Origin: an uncultured Clostridia bacterium
Lineage (GTDB): Bacteria; Bacillota; Clostridia; TANB77; CAG-508
Direction of reading: 5' to 3'
NCBI GenBank assembly: GCA_948857205.1
Contig: CAQPRV010000041.1
Span: 9,313-73,312, forward strand
Length of the DNA stretch: 64,000 nucleotides
Shown here: in pieces, positions 35,906-44,023 of the stretch
Layout of the letters: every line of letters begins with the position of its first letter
How positions within the stretch are numbered: position 1 is the first letter of the stretch
Position numbers and translations under genes: made by a program
Notes under the pieces: generated by a model
The model's database searches: none
What the model was told of the DNA's origin: nothing
What the model saw: the letters and a program-made list of their open reading frames with translations, nothing else

Positions 35906-36028
35906 TGCCATTGGGGACGGAGAAATTTGGCAATTTCAATTGAGTTTTTTTATAAAAGAATGTAACAATATTTTTATATAACTAAAACTTAAATAAAAAA
36001 TTGCCAAATTTCTCCGTCCCTAATGGCA
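35906..36028. repeat. 123-bp MITE-like element: 28-bp terminal inverted repeats of palindromic unit type 2 (TGCCATTGGGGACGGAGAAATTTGGCAA … TTGCCAAATTTCTCCGTCCCTAATGGCA)
   Basis: Fills exactly the gap between two convergent stop codons (35903-35905 and 36031-36033); second full copy at 40437-40571. Confidence 0.6.
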
Positions 36029-36030
36029 TT

Positions 36031-36723
36031 TTACATATTAAATATTTTTAAAATTAAATCTACAAGATAATGTAAAATTTTATTTTCTTCATACATATTT
36101 ATAAAAAAATTTCTAATAAAGGGAATTTGCCATAAAACAACTACAATAAATACAAAAATAATTAAAGATAGAAATCCATTAATATAATCTTTAAATGTTT
36201 TTTTATATCTGATTCTATATCCCCTATTTTTTAAATCTTGAATATATGCATCATGATATGCTTTATTAATTGCATCATTCATTTTCTTATTATACTGCTT
36301 TTGAAACTCTGCTTGTTGTCTTGCTCGTCTTACCTTTTCATCAAGATTTTGGTATGATGGTTGAGTATTTTCATAAGACTGATAATTATTTTGCTCATAA
36401 TCTGCATTAATATTTGATTTAGTATTGTTATAGTCATTATTTGTTTGATAATTTGTATCTGTATTTGTATCTTCATCTTTATCTTTTATATTTTGTTGAT
36501 ATTTATATTCAATTTCTTGATTATATTTTTCTCTTTTTTCTGGATTAGATAATATTTCATATGCTTCGTTAATTAATTTTAGTTTTTCTTCACATTCCTG
36601 CTTTTTTGAGCCTTCTTGTAAATCTGGATGGTATTTCTTCACTAATGTTTTGTATGCTTTTTCTACTATTTCTGTAGATGCTTTTTTATCTATTTCTAAA
36701 ATTTCATAATAATTTTTATCCAT
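36031..36723 (-). CDS. J-domain (DnaJ-like) protein with Gln/Asn/Tyr-rich middle and C-terminal TM helix
   Basis: 230 aa; [35 protein letters not shown] (HPD motif); C-term …[20 protein letters not shown]…; not a full DnaJ (no Zn finger/CTD). Confidence 0.7.
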
Positions 36724-36772
36724 AACAAGTTTCCTTTCTATATTATTAAATATAACATAAAAATAAAAATTG

Positions 36773-36846
36773 TGCCATTGGGGATGGAGAATTTTAGCAA
36801 TTTTTTATGATTTTTTTTGTTATTGGGGACATAGAATTTTAGCAAA
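36773..36846. repeat. two degenerate direct copies of palindromic unit type 2 (TGCCATTGGGGATGGAGAATTTTAGCAA; ATTGGGGACATAGAATTTTAGCAA)
   Basis: Sequence similarity to 35906 unit; in divergent promoter region between J-domain gene and patatin-1. Confidence 0.45.
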
Positions 36847-37025
36847 AAGTTTTAGAGATTTTTTAATTATTCATAAATGGATACTTAGATGTTTATAAGT
36901 TAAAGATAAAATTAATTATTTTTAAATATTTATACTTAACTTAATAGTATTAAGGGGGATTATGGAGTTACTTAGAATAAAAAACGATATTTTTTTGTAT
37001 TGCTGAAACTATTAAATAAAAAATA

Positions 37026-37064
37026 TTGTCAAAATTCTCCGTCCCCAATGGCACCCAATGGCAC
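37026..37064. repeat. palindromic unit type 2, inverted copy with 10-bp internal duplication (TTGTCAAAATTCTCCGTCCCCAATGGCAC+CCAATGGCAC)
   Basis: ~40 nt upstream of patatin-1 GTG start; transcript-sense loop UUCUCCGUCCCC. Confidence 0.55.
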
Positions 37065-37103
37065 AATTTCTGCTTTTTGTCATAATTTATTATGGGTGAT
37101 TTA

Positions 37104-41600: not shown

Positions 41601-41631
41601 AGAAAAATTATATATTTGAGTGTAATATAAA

Positions 41632-41656
41632 ACAGAGGTCTCAGAAAAGCCTCTGT
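41632..41656. terminator. bidirectional hairpin (ACAGAGG-tctcagaaaag-CCTCTGT) between patatin-2 and FGE/RCC1-2
   Basis: 7-bp GC-containing stem, flanked by A/T runs. Confidence 0.5.
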
Positions 41657-41672
41657 TCTAAATATTTTATTG

Positions 41673-43712
41673 TCAATTAATATTTATCTTAATTGGTGTT
41701 GTCACTTCTTTGGTAGAGTCATTTCCTAACATTCCATTTTTTGTATTAAGACCACATACCCATACTTTTTCTTCTTCATCGATTGCTATAAAATAATGTC
41801 TTCCAACTGAAATTTTTTGTATTTTTTTTCCAATTGGAATTGAGATTGGTTTTATTGCTACTGGTGTTACGTTCTTATCAGTTCCTAATTGAGAGTATTT
41901 ATTTTCTCCCCATCCCCATAAAAATCCATTTGTATCTATTGCCATAGCAGTATATCCATGGGCAGAGATATCTTTAAATTTTTTATCTGGTGCAATTTGT
42001 TTTAGTTCAGTAACATTTTCAGATGTAGTATCGCCAATTCCTAATCTGCCTTTGTAATTAGAACCACAACCCCAAAGGTAACCATTCGTATCAATTGCAA
42101 AACTATTTTGTTGTCCTGCTGCAATTTTTTTAAATTTATTTGTTGTTTTTGTTACTTTTGTTGGAGTTTTCACTGAAGAAGTATTACCAGTACATAATTT
42201 ATTGTGAAAACCACTTCCCCAAGTGTAAAGATTATCATCTTTATCTAAAGCCATATTATAAAAATTACTGGCCGAGATTTCTTTAAATATAATATTAGAC
42301 GTGATTTTTGTTGGAGTTTTCACTGAAGAAGTATTACCAGTACCTAATCTGTAGTCAGCGCCAGAGCCCCATGCCCATAGATTACCATCTAAATCAATTG
42401 CTAAACAATGACTTTGCCCAGCTGATACTTTCTGGAATTTTACGTCAGTATTATTTAATTTAACAGTAATTTTTTGAAGAGAGGTTACTTTTGTAGTATT
42501 GCCAGTACCCAATTGACCAGAACCATTGCTTCCCCATGTATATAAAAACCCATCTACATCAATACCAACTGAAAAGCCACCATTAGAATCAGTACTTTTT
42601 GCGAGACCTCTTGAAAGTGAAATTTCTTTAAATTTTATCCTTGCATTTATATGTTTAGGCATTTTTTGAAGTGTAGTAGTACCATCTCCAAGTTCGCCAT
42701 TAGAATTTTTTCCCCACATCCATAGAGTTTTATTTTTATCAAGATAAGCAGTATGATTTGATCCACCAGCTACTACTAATGTTGTTTCAGGTATAGGATC
42801 AATATAATTAACATCTCTATATAATAAAACCCTAAAACCAGTATAAGAAAAAGTACTATTTGGTTTAGCATGATCTCTAGTACCAGCAGGTAAAACAGAA
42901 CCATTACTCAAAGCATCGCCACCTCTAACAACTGCATCATTACCATAGTTTTCAGTGGTCCACTCCCAAACATTACCAGCAATATCATAAATATTATTAG
43001 CTTTCTTTTCATCTTTACCAGCAATATGAATACTTCCATCAGAAGAATTTCTATAATTTCCCCAAGAGCTACTATCAGAATCAACATTATAATTTTTAGT
43101 TTTTAACCAAGTAAGCATAGTATCATAAGCATACGAACTTGCAAGAGAACTAATTACTTCTTTATTACTTTGATACATTTTTGTTGCACTAGCTTTGGCA
43201 TTATCCCTACTAATATTTGTCCATACAGTAGCATTTTTTTTACAAACAGGAACTCCAGCATTATTACCACTAGTAGAACCAACACCAGCTTCATACCTAC
43301 CAACATAAAATCCACCATATGTAGTTACACTAACATTAAAAGAAGGTTCTAATGGATCTTCTTGTGTAGAATTTGGATTAATAATAGAAAAGCTTTTAGA
43401 AAAGTTGCTTCTTTTTAGTTTAATATTATTACCATCTACAGGAACCCAAACAAATTCATTACCAGTAGCAGTTTCTTTAATAACAAATCCAGTATTCCAA
43501 GAGCCTTCAGTATGCATAAATCCTATAGGGGTATATGGATTATCATAAGAATACCCATTAGTTGCTTTTGCAATTTCTACAGTATTATTATTTTGTAGAG
43601 TTTGTGTACTAACAATTGTAAATATAATTGAACTTAATAATAAAATAGAAATAATAAGAATACTTACAATTATATATTTTAGTTTTCTTTTGTTTTTGAA
43701 AAAATTTAGCAT
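41673..43712 (-). CDS. signal-anchored FGE-sulfatase-domain + RCC1-repeat protein, copy 2
   Basis: Start at MLNFFKNKRKLKYIIVSI… (ATG 43710-43712, RBS AAAGGAGAA). Same FGE motifs (GNVWEWTTENYGNDAVVRGGDALSNGS…GFRVLLYRD). The RCC1 repeats are more diverged from copy 1 than the FGE part. Confidence 0.8.
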   Translation of the reverse strand: MLNFFKNKRKLKYIIVSILIISILLLSSIIFTIVSTQTLQNNNTVEIAKATNGYSYDNPYTPIGFMHTEGSWNTGFVIKETATGNEFVWVPVDGNNIKLKRSNFSKSFSIINPNSTQEDPLEPSFNVSVTTYGGFYVGRYEAGVGSTSGNNAGVPVCKKNATVWTNISRDNAKASATKMYQSNKEVISSLASSYAYDTMLTWLKTKNYNVDSDSSSWGNYRNSSDGSIHIAGKDEKKANNIYDIAGNVWEWTTENYGNDAVVRGGDALSNGSVLPAGTRDHAKPNSTFSYTGFRVLLYRDVNYIDPIPETTLVVAGGSNHTAYLDKNKTLWMWGKNSNGELGDGTTTLQKMPKHINARIKFKEISLSRGLAKSTDSNGGFSVGIDVDGFLYTWGSNGSGQLGTGNTTKVTSLQKITVKLNNTDVKFQKVSAGQSHCLAIDLDGNLWAWGSGADYRLGTGNTSSVKTPTKITSNIIFKEISASNFYNMALDKDDNLYTWGSGFHNKLCTGNTSSVKTPTKVTKTTNKFKKIAAGQQNSFAIDTNGYLWGCGSNYKGRLGIGDTTSENVTELKQIAPDKKFKDISAHGYTAMAIDTNGFLWGWGENKYSQLGTDKNVTPVAIKPISIPIGKKIQKISVGRHYFIAIDEEEKVWVCGLNTKNGMLGNDSTKEVTTPIKININ

Positions 43713-43851
43713 AAGTTTCTCCTTTAAATATATTAATATTATGTACAAAAATTGTATAAAAAAGTCATCTTTAAAAATATAACAACAGAATAACATAATT
43801 TCCCAAAAAATACAAGAGTTTATCATTTAAATTGTGTTAAAAAAACTTGTG

Positions 43852-43878
43852 GTCAGTGGGGACGGAGAAATTTGGCAA
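43852..43878. repeat. palindromic unit type 2 (GTCAGTGGGGACGGAGAAATTTGGCAA)
   Basis: ~140 nt upstream of FGE/RCC1-2 start on minus strand; paired with a type-1 unit 114 bp away (hybrid element). Confidence 0.55.
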
Positions 43879-43992
43879 TTATTAATCAGAATATGAAGTT
43901 ATTAGATATTAGTATTAATAAGAATAGATAAAGTTGTTAATACCATTTCAATATAAAAAAGTAATGTAAAAAAGTAAAAAATCAACAAGAAT

Positions 43993-44023
43993 CATGATTT
44001 TTTCCTCCGTCCCCAAAATCATG
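43993..44023. repeat. palindromic unit type 1 (CATGATTTT-TTCCTCCGTCCCC-AAAATCATG), perfect 9-bp stems
   Basis: Identical loop to 16251 copy; ~245 nt upstream of giant adhesin start. Confidence 0.6.

What the first reader, a model, noticed from the sequence alone, without database searches (positions are those of the whole stretch)
35906..44023. Family of ~30-nt palindromic units with a conserved loop GGGACGGAG(G/A)A, in two stem variants, always in inverted pairs in intergenic DNA
At least 11 copies occur in this window and all are intergenic. Type 1 (stems AATGATTTT/AAAATCATT) is at 15796, 16251 and 43993. Type 2 (stems TGCCA/TGGCA) is at 35906, 36001, 36773, 36818, 37026, 40437, 40544 and 43852. 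The two types share the loop core YTCTCCGTCCCC (or its complement GGGGACGGAGAR) but have unrelated stems. That argues for selection on the loop sequence plus hairpin shape, not simple copy-paste. Pairs are always inverted and flank 79-424 bp spacers, so every flanking gene sees the same polarity. 5' leaders of patatin-1, patatin-2, parA, the giant adhesin, both FGE/RCC1 genes and the J-domain gene carry the CUCCGUCCCC (anti-Shine-Dalgarno-like) version. 3' ends of rsmG, the last T4SS-like gene and the J-domain gene carry the GGGACGGAGG version. The elements could be a MITE family, a protein-binding or recombination site that mediated the adjacent duplication, or a cis-acting RNA hairpin that pairs with ribosome-binding sites. 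I do not recognise the motif as any named repeat.
Basis: seen in the sequence. Interest (0 to 1): 0.7.

Follow-up and report, generated by a model that had tools for sequence, protein, structure and literature searches.

The report
REP-like hairpin repeats of a tyrosine transposase
The repeated 30-nt hairpins are a gut-Clostridia family of REP/REPIN-type repeats, the kind of small palindromes that flank, and are thought to be spread by, a single-copy IS200-like "RAYT/TIRYT" tyrosine transposase, so they are a new member of a known class, not a new kind of element.

Summary
The window holds 11 units, 9 with exact GGGACGGAG against 0.02 expected, as 8-11 bp stems around a 13-nt loop rGGGACGGAG-rAA. 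The family reaches far beyond the window. One pattern scan hit more than 112 stretches in about 45 uncultured low-GC gut Clostridia MAGs.

- Stems vary, largely by genome, and change in a compensatory way, while the loop is conserved.
- 85% of units lie outside ORFs.
- Neighbouring units are almost always G-version then C-version (59 against 1).
- Single units usually start within about 10 nt of a same-strand stop codon.

The decisive result concerns related genomes. There, a G...C pair of these units brackets a single-copy 246-aa Y1/HUH transposase. It matches Pfam Y1_Tnp and NCBIfam "REP-associated tyrosine transposase", and its best fold match is 4ER8 (TnpA-REP). It usually sits between abcF and tex. 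Its orthologues carry different loops (GGGGACGGAG, GGGGTCGGAG, GGGGACAGAC). In the locus with further copies (L132) those copies share the loop of the flanking units.

This matches the published TIRtron/TIRYT class, whose flanking repeats carry GGGGWSAS. The terminator, anti-Shine-Dalgarno riboregulator and classical MITE readings are not supported. Transposition itself, and a RAYT gene in the window's own genome, were not shown. Verdict: new member of a known kind, moderate interest.

The parts
15796..15826 (+). Type-1 unit, G version. Stem AATGATTTT/AAAATCATT, loop A-GGGACGGAG-GAA. The rsmG stop codon TGA (15798-15800) lies in the 5' arm.
15827..16250 (.). Spacer of the rsmG-parA pair. It holds a strong hairpin plus U-tract at 15872-15925, the likely rsmG terminator. 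The spacer is 339 nt longer in other strains.
16251..16281 (-). Type-1 unit (C version on the + strand). It lies about 20 nt upstream of the conserved parA promoter TTGACT-17-TATTAT (16300-16328).
35906..35932 (+). Type-2 unit, G version, starting directly after the TAA of the last gene of the T4SS-like cluster.
35902..36033 (.). Complete 130-nt foldback (REPIN-like doublet). The spacer is also self-complementary. It folds at -68 kcal/mol, z -14.5.
36002..36028 (-). Type-2 unit, G version on the - strand, 2 nt after the stop of the J-domain gene (36031-36723, -).
36773..36799 (+). Degenerate type-2 unit (GGGATGGAG, 3' arm TAGCA).
36818..36844 (+). Degenerate type-2 unit (GGGACATAG, both arms decayed).
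37027..37065 (-). Type-2 unit upstream of patatin-1, with a 10-nt tandem duplication of its outer arm (CCAATGGCAC x2, 37046-37065). It marks the left boundary of the duplicated segment.
40415..40429 (+). Truncated 3' half of a type-2 unit (GAGGAAATTTGGCAA).
40437..40463 (+). Type-2 unit, G version. The end of duplication copy A (40464) falls just after it.
40433..40576 (.). Complete foldback doublet (-62.5 kcal/mol, z -9.7). It is the join point of the tandem duplication.
40544..40572 (-). Type-2 unit upstream of patatin-2. It marks the start of duplication copy B.
43851..43878 (+). Type-2 unit with a decayed 5' arm (GGTCA for TGCCA). It marks the end of duplication copy B.
43993..44023 (-). 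Type-1 unit (stem ATCATGATTTT/AAAATCATG) upstream of the giant repeat protein gene. Together with 43851 it forms a hybrid T2/T1 'pair'.

Best explanation
The units are REP-type repeats (short extragenic palindromes). In inverted pairs they are REPIN-like foldback doublets. They belong to a family that flanks, and is most probably recognised and spread by, a single-copy IS200-like Y1/HUH tyrosine transposase of the RAYT/TIRYT type.

Proposed mechanism, by analogy with TnpA-REP and IS608 TnpA. The enzyme binds the unit as a hairpin in single-stranded DNA. It reads the conserved loop (GGGGAC-G/A-G...) together with the stem shape, not the stem sequence. That would explain an invariant loop alongside stems that drift and co-vary, largely genome by genome. 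Copies then persist where they do no harm, namely between a stop codon and the next ribosome-binding site or terminator.

Once in place, the copies have side effects that are inferred, not shown:
- a hairpin right after the stop codon in the mRNA;
- long foldbacks between cistrons;
- substrates for unequal recombination, as at the patatin-FGE/RCC1 duplication in this window.

What is shown: the family exists, its stems co-vary, it has a fixed polarity and a characteristic placement, it is present or absent at orthologous sites, and it is associated with the transposase gene. In one related locus (L132) dispersed copies share the loop of the units flanking the transposase.

What is inferred: catalysis on these hairpins, the transposition mechanism, any RNA-level role, and the presence of the transposase in the window's own genome.
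For: 1. Hairpin with conserved loop. In 178 distinct units the 11 in-register pairs are 85.1% paired. Column shuffles give 71.5% +/- 0.6, and slid registers give 46-64%. Double-sided changes occur at several pairs (up to 64 of 178 units at one position), and the 13-nt loop is invariant.

2. REP-like distribution.
- More than 112 stretches in about 45 MAG species.
- 179 of 211 units lie outside ORFs, although 82% of the DNA is coding.
- Head-to-head doublets outnumber the reverse order 59 to 1, with a modal spacing of 75-80 nt, and both units of a doublet share the same stem.
- Whole doublets fold as one long hairpin, z -14.5 and -9.7.

3. Gain and loss. Units are present or absent at orthologous gene junctions. 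Syntenic relatives with 68-77% RsmG identity have a 124-128 nt rsmG-parA spacer with the same parA promoter and no unit. The window's 486-nt G...C segment is therefore an insertion at the rsmG stop codon.

4. Transposase.
- L030:4299-5003 matches Pfam Y1_Tnp (E 2.7e-12) and lies inside a G...C pair.
- Homologues lie next to units in L063, L009 and L021.
- Full-length homologues score 80.7 and 81.9 bits on NCBIfam NF047646, 'REP-associated tyrosine transposase' (cutoff 80).
- The HxH motif and the Tyr of YIHxNPVKA are invariant across 13 members.
- The AlphaFold model (pLDDT 87) has 4ER8, TnpA-REP bound to a REP hairpin, as its best PDB match (E 1.9e-6, TM 0.73).

5. Flanks of homologues. L126 and L127 have a G unit upstream and a C unit right after the stop codon. 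L128 has the loop variant GGGGTCGGAGAC on both sides. In L132 the flanking units and the dispersed doublets all read GGGGACAGACC. The abcF-RAYT-tex synteny is conserved.

6. More distant relatives. Among 47 metagenomic relatives (28-53% identity, 25-55% GC), the best flanking inverted repeat carries GGGG[AT][CG] in 28, in 27 of them on the coding strand upstream of the gene. It is typically stem-GGGGACGGTTCT-stem.

7. No phage copies. The pattern has zero matches in 2.9 million viral contigs.

8. Literature.
- TIRtron/TIRYT genes are flanked by TIRs sharing GGGGWSAS. Some are self-complementary and form dimer-rich repeat families (PMC3733652).
- Subclass 2.1 corresponds to TIRYT and has a C-terminal HTH (PMC6006769).
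- REPINs are inverted REP doublets that are mobilised by RAYTs (PMC3337134).
Against: - No transposase gene lies in the 64-kb window, and I could not show that the window's own genome has one.
- Transposition was not observed. The presence/absence comparisons are between species, and no target-site signature could be defined.
- The units lack the classical REP hallmarks of a 5' GTAG tag, a GC-rich stem and a 2-5 nt loop. The window's loop GGGGACGG matches the published GGGGWSAS consensus at only 7 of 8 positions.
- Isolated units are thermodynamically weak hairpins (-4.5 to -6.6 kcal/mol as RNA, z -0.2 to -2.9).
- The very tight coupling to stop codons is not predicted by a purely selfish model and may reflect a host function.
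- The scan pattern fixed TG...CA in the stem, so two of the base pairs carry no information, and the sample is biased towards those stems.
Confidence: 0.8

Rival explanations
1. The units are cis-acting RNA hairpins selected for a host function, and the association with the transposase is secondary. The proposed functions are an anti-Shine-Dalgarno loop (CUCCGUCCCC) that sequesters ribosome-binding sites in 5' leaders, or a GGAGG-bearing loop after the stop codon that stalls or retains ribosomes or protects the mRNA.
For: - Single units start -9 to +11 nt from a same-strand stop codon in about 39 of 55 cases where a same-strand gene lies upstream.
- Between co-directional genes they are G-sense 30 times against 7.
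- In doublets the C unit often lies 9-21 nt from the next start codon, directly beside its RBS.
- Many singles are intercistronic, in the order stop codon, unit, RBS, ATG.
- In E. coli, REPs within 15 nt of a stop codon stall ribosomes (cited in PMC12306157).
- The loop is conserved across about 45 species.
Against: - Related loop variants lack GGAGG or CCUCC altogether: GGGGACGTTCC, GGGACGTAG, GGGGACAGACC.
- Type-2 loops in the window (GGAGAA) are poor anti-SD or SD sequences.
- The parA promoter conserved in relatives lies downstream of the unit.
- Close syntenic relatives lack the units at the same genes.
- Orientation relative to transcription cannot be separated from orientation relative to replication.
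- Isolated hairpins are weak, and in a read-through transcript the long foldback would dominate.
- No Rfam family matches.
Confidence: 0.1
2. The units are intrinsic transcription terminators, and the pairs are bidirectional terminators or insulators.
For: The G version always faces incoming transcription from outside a pair. Some units with 11-12 bp stems are followed by T runs (L056 and L061).
Against: - Stems are A/T-rich, the loop is 13 nt, and the free energy is only about -5 kcal/mol.
- The terminator scan finds none at the units.
- Many singles are followed within 10-30 nt by the RBS and start codon of the next cistron.
- Canonical terminators lie separately inside the spacers, at window 15872-15925 (-19.9 kcal/mol, z -7.8) and in L015, L033 and L030.
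- A terminator does not need a conserved 13-nt loop.
Confidence: 0.04
3. The pairs are terminal inverted repeats of a classical DDE-transposon MITE (for example IS630/Tc1-mariner, Stowaway-like), or recombinase sites flanking invertible promoters.
For: - The pairs are inverted repeats flanking AT-rich spacers of 25-457 nt.
- There is a sub-threshold Rfam match to MIR9481, a plant miRNA precursor family, 59 bits against a gathering score of 130.
- Papers on plant mariner-like TIRs contain CTCCGTCCC.
Against: - The polarity is opposite to Stowaway, whose ends read CTCCCTCCGTCCC... at the outer edge (my recollection). Here the motif sits in the loop, 9-12 nt inside, with the G version first.
- No TA or other target duplication is visible at filled versus empty sites.
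- No recurrent DDE transposase or recombinase family occurs among 768 genes in the sampled loci. The largest cluster has 6 members.
- Most spacers are about 40 nt and some are 5-15 nt, which is too short for inversion.
- Single units are common.
Confidence: 0.03

Closest known systems
TIRtron / TIRYT elements (Di Nocera et al. 2013, PMC3733652), equated with TnpA-Y1 subclass 2.1 (Quentin et al. 2018, PMC6006769)
   Same: - A RAYT-like Y1 transposase with the HUH motif and catalytic Tyr, plus a C-terminal helical extension.
- The gene is flanked by inverted repeats carrying a GGGG[AT][CG]..-type motif.
- Some published TIRs are self-complementary and form moderately abundant genomic families arranged as dimers.
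   Different: - This family is in uncultured low-GC gut Clostridia. The 2013 paper does not mention Firmicutes or Clostridia.
- The motif is GGGGACGG or GGGGTCGG (G, not A, at position 7) and sits in a 13-nt hairpin loop.
- Singles show a strong association with stop codons.
- Quentin et al. reported finding no REP-like sequences for subclass 2.1. Their REP filter required GTAG/GTGG, GC-rich stems and 2-5 nt loops, so it would miss these units.
- Assignment to subclass 2.1 is my inference from the protein architecture and was not tested phylogenetically.
REP / BIME / REPIN-RAYT systems of Proteobacteria (E. coli TnpA-REP, PDB 4ER8; Pseudomonas REPINs)
   Same: - Extragenic palindromes of 20-40 nt.
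- Head-to-head doublets with a 20-100 nt spacer that fold into one long hairpin.
- Location mainly downstream of genes, between co-directional and convergent genes.
- A single-copy, vertically inherited Y1 transposase flanked by the repeats.
- Best fold match of the protein is 4ER8.
- REP-mediated duplications are known.
   Different: - There is no 5' GTAG tag.
- Stems are A/T-rich, not G/C-rich.
- The conserved, presumably recognised, sequence is a long loop, not the stem foot.
- The protein is about 80 aa longer than E. coli TnpA-REP.
IS200/IS605 transposons (IS608, ISDra2) and their hairpin ends
   Same: The same Y1/HUH fold (Foldseek hits 2XM3, 2VJV, 2A6O), with recognition of DNA hairpins in single-stranded DNA.
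   Different: - IS200/IS605 ends are not inverted repeats of each other.
- The element carries its own transposase in many copies.
- NCBIfam's IS200 model scores well below its cutoff (27.9 against 55).
- Here the gene is single-copy and syntenic.

Membership tests
REP/REPIN-RAYT system | Short (20-40 nt) imperfect palindrome able to form a hairpin | tested here: met
   Units of 31-35 nt with an 8-11 bp stem. They are 85% paired, against 71.5% in shuffles, with compensatory changes.
REP/REPIN-RAYT system | Extragenic and present in many copies per genome | tested here: met
   179 of 211 units lie outside ORFs in DNA that is 82% coding. True copy numbers were not measured.
REP/REPIN-RAYT system | Inverted doublets with a short spacer that fold as one hairpin (REPIN / head-to-head dimer) | tested here: met
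   59 G-then-C neighbour pairs against 1 in the reverse order. Both units of a pair share the same stem. Foldbacks have z -14.5 and -9.7.
REP/REPIN-RAYT system | A Y1/HUH RAYT gene flanked by the repeats in inverted orientation, in the same genome | tested here: met
   Met in related genomes: L030, L063, L009, L021, L126-L130, L132, L149. In 27 of 47 distant relatives the flanking repeat carries the motif on the coding strand upstream. It could not be tested for the window's own genome, because the gene is not in the 64 kb.
REP/REPIN-RAYT system | Classical REP signature: 5' GTAG/GTGG tag, G+C-rich stem, 2-5 nt loop | tested here: not met
   No GTAG tag, A/T-rich stems and a 13-nt loop. These criteria are as used in PMC6006769.
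REP/REPIN-RAYT system | Mobility (new copies arise within a lineage) | tested here: inconclusive
   Presence/absence at orthologous junctions, and an insertion at the rsmG stop codon relative to syntenic relatives. Ten contigs from strains of the window's species show the same site occupied. No transposition event was observed.
TIRtron/TIRYT (TnpA-Y1 subclass 2.1) | RAYT homologue with conserved HUH and Tyr | tested here: met
   Pfam Y1_Tnp match. NCBIfam NF047646 scores 80.7 and 81.9 bits against a cutoff of 80. H60, H62 and Y121 are invariant. The best fold match is 4ER8.
TIRtron/TIRYT (TnpA-Y1 subclass 2.1) | C-terminal helix-turn-helix-like extension | tested here: inconclusive
   The model has a confident all-helical domain at residues 183-245. 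There is only a weak sequence match to a winged-helix protein (E 0.31) and no Pfam HTH hit.
TIRtron/TIRYT (TnpA-Y1 subclass 2.1) | Flanking inverted repeats with the consensus GGGG[AT][CG]A[CG] | tested here: met
   The match is exact in L132 (GGGGACAG). The window family (GGGGACGG) and L128 (GGGGTCGG) match 7 of 8 positions. The motif GGGG[AT][CG] is in the best flanking repeat of 28 of 47 relatives, 27 of them on the coding strand upstream.
DDE-type MITE (IS630/Tc1-mariner, Stowaway-like) | TIRs at the extreme ends, target-site duplication (TA), and a related DDE transposase | tested here: not met
   The motif lies inside the hairpin and its polarity is reversed. No duplication is seen at filled versus empty sites. 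No recurrent DDE family occurs in 0.87 Mb.
Intrinsic terminator | Stable G+C-rich stem, short loop, U tract immediately after | tested here: not met
Any Rfam RNA family | Match at the gathering score | tested here: not met
   Only two tRNAs pass in the window. The region gives only a sub-threshold MIR9481 match, 59 bits against 130.

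The most novel reading that the evidence does not exclude
The family may be more than selfish debris. In this reading a vertically inherited, domesticated TIRYT maintains a 'punctuation' system in low-GC gut Clostridia. The enzyme reads a loop code (GGGGAC..., co-evolving with its orthologue), not the stem. The hairpins are kept within about 10 nt of stop codons because they act in the mRNA, through ribosome pausing at termination, 3' protection, or RNase III processing of doublets between cistrons.
Probability: 0.2. Interest if true: 0.6.

Novelty: new member of a known kind. Interest (0 to 1): 0.35.

Why it matters
REP/RAYT systems have been studied almost only in Proteobacteria. 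For the large RAYT subclass with a C-terminal HTH (TIRYT / subclass 2.1), dispersed repeat families are reported in only a limited number of genomes (PMC3733652), and a later survey found no REP-like sequences next to subclass 2.1 genes (PMC6006769). This family gives a clear Gram-positive example. It has an abundant, easily recognised repeat, a syntenic single-copy transposase, and natural loop variants that go with different transposase orthologues. That makes loop-based recognition directly testable with oligonucleotides.

There are also practical consequences:
- The units break short-read assemblies of these MAGs. Nine of ten strain contigs end inside the second unit of the rsmG-parA pair.
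- The units supply stop codons to genes.
- The units mark the join point of a duplication of putative effector genes (patatin, FGE/RCC1).

Annotators should therefore mask and label them, not call them regulatory RNAs.

Tried and rejected
1. Rfam at gathering and at E<=10 gave no family. The only hit covering a pair is a sub-threshold match to MIR9481, a plant miRNA precursor family. A full-text search for the 9-mer returned only unrelated papers, apart from plant mariner-like and MITE TIRs that share CTCCGTCCC. I treat this as coincidence because the polarity is reversed.

2. The terminator hypothesis was rejected.

3. The inverton idea was rejected because most spacers are too short.

This was a false negative caused by divergence. 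The gene was found only when ORFs bracketed by units were scanned against Pfam.

5. All-against-all clustering of 768 neighbouring genes found no abundant associated family. It did reveal syntenic sets that I used for the filled versus empty comparisons.

6. An exact look-up of the window's RsmG failed because the called start codon differs. It was solved through the homologue search.

7. I tried to separate orientation relative to transcription from orientation relative to replication. The discordant classes were 5 against 7, so this is unresolved.

8. The promoter scan is uninformative in DNA of 26% GC, since hits do not exceed the shuffles. Only the parA promoter is credible, because it is conserved in relatives.

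9. No conserved target motif or target duplication could be defined at unit boundaries.

10. The viral-contig scan gave zero hits.

Full report
**Observation.** GGGACGGAG occurs 9 times in the 64-kb window, against 0.02 expected. With one or two mismatches, the two degenerate copies at 36781 and 36826 are added. Each unit is a small palindrome. Type 1 is AATGATTTT-[r GGGACGGAG GAA]-AAAATCATT. Type 2 is TGCCA-[TTr GGGACGGAG AAwTT]-TGGCA. The two stems are in register, so three base pairs differ by changes on both sides.

The window has 26% G+C and lies next to the replication origin, with the gene order dnaN-dnaA | rpmH ... mnmE-mnmG-rsmG-[pair]-parA-parB. The other units surround a J-domain gene, two patatin genes and two FGE/RCC1 genes.

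**The family outside the window.** I scanned one genome per species with a pattern that allows both stem types. None of these stretches overlaps the window at the DNA level. They contain 211 units, 179 with the exact core.

The in-register stem is paired in more than 90% of units over 8 bp and often extends to 11 bp. The loop is a constant 13 nt. Stems differ widely, for example ATGATTTT, CTTGTTTTT, CTGTTTTT, GTGCCA, GTGTTTTT, TGAATTT and TGTCAAT, and are largely genome-specific. Over 178 distinct units, 85.1% of stem cells pair. Column shuffles give 71.5 +/- 0.6%, and slid registers give 46-64%. Up to 64 units carry double-sided changes at a single pair. One caveat applies: the scan pattern fixed TG...CA, so those two pairs are uninformative.

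Looking at every GGGAC in these loci shows a wider superfamily. Of 513 occurrences, 221 sit in loops of perfect hairpins of at least 6 bp. The loops include GGGGACGGAGGAA, GGGGACGTTCCTT, GGGACGTAG and GGGACAGGCCT.

**Arrangement and placement.** The sampled DNA is 82% coding, yet only 32 of 211 units lie inside ORFs. Neighbouring units within 600 nt are G-version then C-version 59 times, the reverse once, and same-sense 6 times. The modal core-to-core distance is 75-80 nt. The two units of a pair share the same stem. The short pairs in the window fold end to end as single long hairpins of -68 and -62 kcal/mol, z -14.5 and -9.7. About 44% of units are single.

Oriented by the G version, 55 of 72 singles with a gene upstream have a same-strand gene there. 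In about 39 of these the stop codon lies -9 to +11 nt from the unit edge. The TGA inside the ATGATTTT arm is often the stop codon itself, as it is for rsmG in the window. Between co-directional genes, singles are G-sense 30 times and C-sense 7 times. Many are intercistronic, in the order stop codon, unit, RBS, ATG. In doublets, the outer edges abut a stop codon on one side and often an RBS 9-21 nt from the start codon on the other.

**What the units are not.** They are not intrinsic terminators. Isolated units fold at only about -5 kcal/mol (z -0.2 to -2.9). The terminator scan finds nothing at them. Singles are followed at once by the next cistron. Proper terminators lie separately inside the spacers, for example at window 15872-15925 (-19.9 kcal/mol, z -7.8), and the same is seen in L015, L033 and L030.

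They match no Rfam family.

The anti-Shine-Dalgarno reading is weak for four reasons:
- Loop variants without CCUCC exist.
- The type-2 loop is a poor match to a Shine-Dalgarno complement.
- The polarity seen by flanking genes follows simply from head-to-head geometry.
- The parA promoter TTGACT-17-TATTAT (16300-16328), conserved in relatives, lies downstream of the unit.

**Gain and loss.** Syntenic sets among the loci show units present or absent at the same gene junctions in different species. Relatives with 68-77% RsmG identity and identical synteny have no unit anywhere in 20 kb. Two of them have an rsmG-parA spacer of only 124-128 nt, with the same promoter and the stop codon at the same codon position. 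The whole 486-nt G...C segment of the window is therefore an insertion that begins at the rsmG stop codon. Strains of the window's own species keep both units but have a spacer 339 nt longer, and nine of the ten contigs examined end exactly inside the second unit. In three close species the remA-rpoZ doublet is conserved, while its spacer diverges faster than the units.

**The associated gene.** I scanned ORFs bracketed by units against Pfam. L030:4299-5003 proved to be a Y1_Tnp (IS200-like) protein (E 2.7e-12). It lies between a G unit, which follows the stop codon of the upstream gene, and a C unit, which is followed by the RBS of the downstream gene. Homologues abut units in L063, L009 and L021.

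The family has 2,291 members at E<=1e-5, most of them about 246 aa long. NCBIfam's equivalog model 'REP-associated tyrosine transposase' scores 80.7 and 81.9 bits (cutoff 80) for two members and 71.7 for a third. H-x-H, the Tyr of YIHxNPVKA and GYVF(R/K)DR are conserved across 13 members of 46-74% identity. An AlphaFold model (pLDDT 87) has 4ER8, TnpA-REP bound to a REP hairpin, as its best PDB match (E 1.9e-6, TM 0.73), followed by the ISDra2 and IS608 transposases.

The gene is syntenic, between abcF and tex, in L030, L126, L128 and L132. It also lies directly upstream of tex in L063 and L127. This argues for single-copy vertical inheritance.

Its flanks go with the orthologue: GGGGACGGAGGAA in L030 and L126, GGGGTCGGAGAC in L128, and GGGGACAGACC in L132. 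In L132 the dispersed doublets in the same locus carry the same loop as the units flanking the gene. L149 has a type-2-like stem (GTTGCCAAT-GGGGTCGGAG-ATAAATGGCAA) next to a 36%-identical paralogue.

Among 47 analysable metagenomic relatives (28-53% identity, 25-55% G+C), the best inverted repeat flanking the gene carries GGGG[AT][CG] in 28. In 27 of these it is on the coding strand upstream. It is usually stem-GGGGACGGTTCT-stem. The pattern is absent from 2.9 million viral contigs.

**Comparison with what is known.**
- REPINs are inverted REP doublets mobilised by single-copy RAYTs (PMC3337134, PMC3116915).
- RAYT Group 1 also occurs in Clostridia (PMC5581495).
- Di Nocera et al. described 'TIRtrons'. 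These are RAYT-like 'TIRYT' genes flanked by inverted repeats that share GGGGWSAS. Some are self-complementary and form moderately abundant, dimer-rich families (PMC3733652).
- Quentin et al. equate TIRYT with TnpA-Y1 subclass 2.1, which has a C-terminal HTH. They found no REP-like sequences there, using a filter that demands GTAG, G+C-rich stems and 2-5 nt loops (PMC6006769).
- REPs within 15 nt of a stop codon stall ribosomes in E. coli (cited in PMC12306157).

The present family fits this class in protein, gene arrangement, motif, dimer organisation and placement. It fails only the classical GTAG/GC-rich REP definition.

**Mechanism.** The repeat family, its co-varying stems and constant loop, its polarity and placement, its turnover at orthologous sites and its association with the Y1 transposase are all shown. 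In L132, loop identity between the transposase flanks and dispersed copies is also shown.

The following steps are inferred from established knowledge of IS608 TnpA and TnpA-REP. The enzyme binds the hairpin in single-stranded DNA, reads the loop and shape, and cuts and rejoins to move or copy units. Any RNA-level effect of a hairpin at the stop codon, or of a 30-bp foldback between cistrons, is also inferred. Orientation relative to transcription and relative to replication could not be separated.

**Consequence in the window.** The tandem duplication 37025-40464 / 40543-43878 (patatin 91% identical, FGE/RCC1 73-80%) begins exactly at a C unit and ends exactly at a G unit, and the doublet 40437-40572 is its join point. 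This is what unequal recombination between two flanking doublets would give. REP-mediated duplications are known from Salmonella (my recollection). It also means that several of the 11 copies are not independent insertions.

**Verdict.** The riboregulator idea is not supported. The element is a new member of a known kind, namely the REP/REPIN-like TIR repeats of a RAYT/TIRYT transposase. Interest is moderate (0.35). The main open points are the transposase in this organism's own genome, the biochemistry of loop recognition, and whether the coupling to stop codons is functional.

Noticed in passing
window 37025-40464 and 40543-43878: Tandem duplication of the patatin plus FGE/RCC1 gene pair (91% and 73-80% identity). 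Its boundaries coincide exactly with a C unit and a G unit, and the doublet 40437-40572 is the join point.
   Followed up: yes
window 11135-11322: A separate foldback between jag and mnmE, with perfect 35-nt inverted arms (TTACTTTACTATATTATATATTTTAAATTAATTAT) 118 nt apart. It has no GGGAC motif and may belong to another MITE-like family.
   Followed up: no
window 37046-37065; also L021, L027, L028, L034, L042, L047, L079, L080, L082, L103: A recurrent tandem duplication of about 10 nt covering the outer arm plus the first Gs of the loop (for example ATGATTTTGG|GTGATTTTGG|GGACGG). In doublets it is mirrored at the other end. It could be a footprint of nested insertion or slippage, but it remains unexplained.
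   Followed up: partly
window 37058-37086 and 36778-36749; 37059-37073; 40567-40581: The outer arm ATGGCA of type-2 units can serve as an outward-facing -35-like hexamer with a TG-extended -10, facing patatin-1 and the J-domain gene. The same arm gives TGGCAC-N5-CTGC with sigma-54-like GG/GC spacing upstream of patatin-1, and TGGCAC-N5-CTGT upstream of patatin-2. Both are consensus matches only.
   Followed up: no
window 11090-11126, 15935-15975; L113 about 11190-11240: A repeated motif of the form GGARRGTCATRC...TTGTATAAAAAGCTACAAT occurs before mnmE. A similar sequence lies in the extra spacer segment of strain L113, with a weaker resemblance in the window's rsmG-parA spacer. It may be a small repeat or RNA.
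   Followed up: no
L123 about 10800-10960: A relative with 77% RsmG identity has a different long foldback (GGGTTATAATTATATATTTTT...AAAAAATATATAATTATAACCC) in the same rsmG-parA spacer. This intergenic site may be a hotspot for palindromic insertions.
   Followed up: no
L050, L081, L087, L104 (MAG BRZ_BD bin46); L145, L148: A second hairpin family, TGAACTTT-GGGGACGTTCCTT-AAAGTTCA, and a third with TTGCCA stems and GGGACGTAG loops coexist with the GGGACGGAG family in one genome.
   Followed up: partly
L114-L121 contig ends; P0121-P0240 contig lengths: Short-read (Logan) contigs end exactly inside the second unit. Many RAYT homologues sit on contigs of only about 1 kb, so these repeats appear to fragment assemblies of these MAGs.
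   Followed up: partly
window 19810-35905; L123-L125 13.4-20.7 kb: A T4SS-like cluster (several TrbC/T4SS-pilin genes, a TraC-like gene, a TraG-type P-loop ATPase) lies a few genes downstream of parB near the origin. It is syntenic in relatives of 68-77% RsmG identity, so it is chromosomal and conserved, not a recent mobile element.
   Followed up: no
window 44268-64000: An open reading frame of more than 6,500 codons runs off the window. It contains about 21 copies of a 381-nt (127-aa) repeat of 60-92% identity, and is presumably a giant surface adhesin.
   Followed up: no
window 35906-36030: A sub-threshold Rfam match to MIR9481, a plant miRNA precursor family (59 bits against 130). Papers on plant mariner-like and MITE TIRs contain the same CTCCGTCCC. 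I judge the resemblance coincidental because the polarity is reversed.
   Followed up: partly
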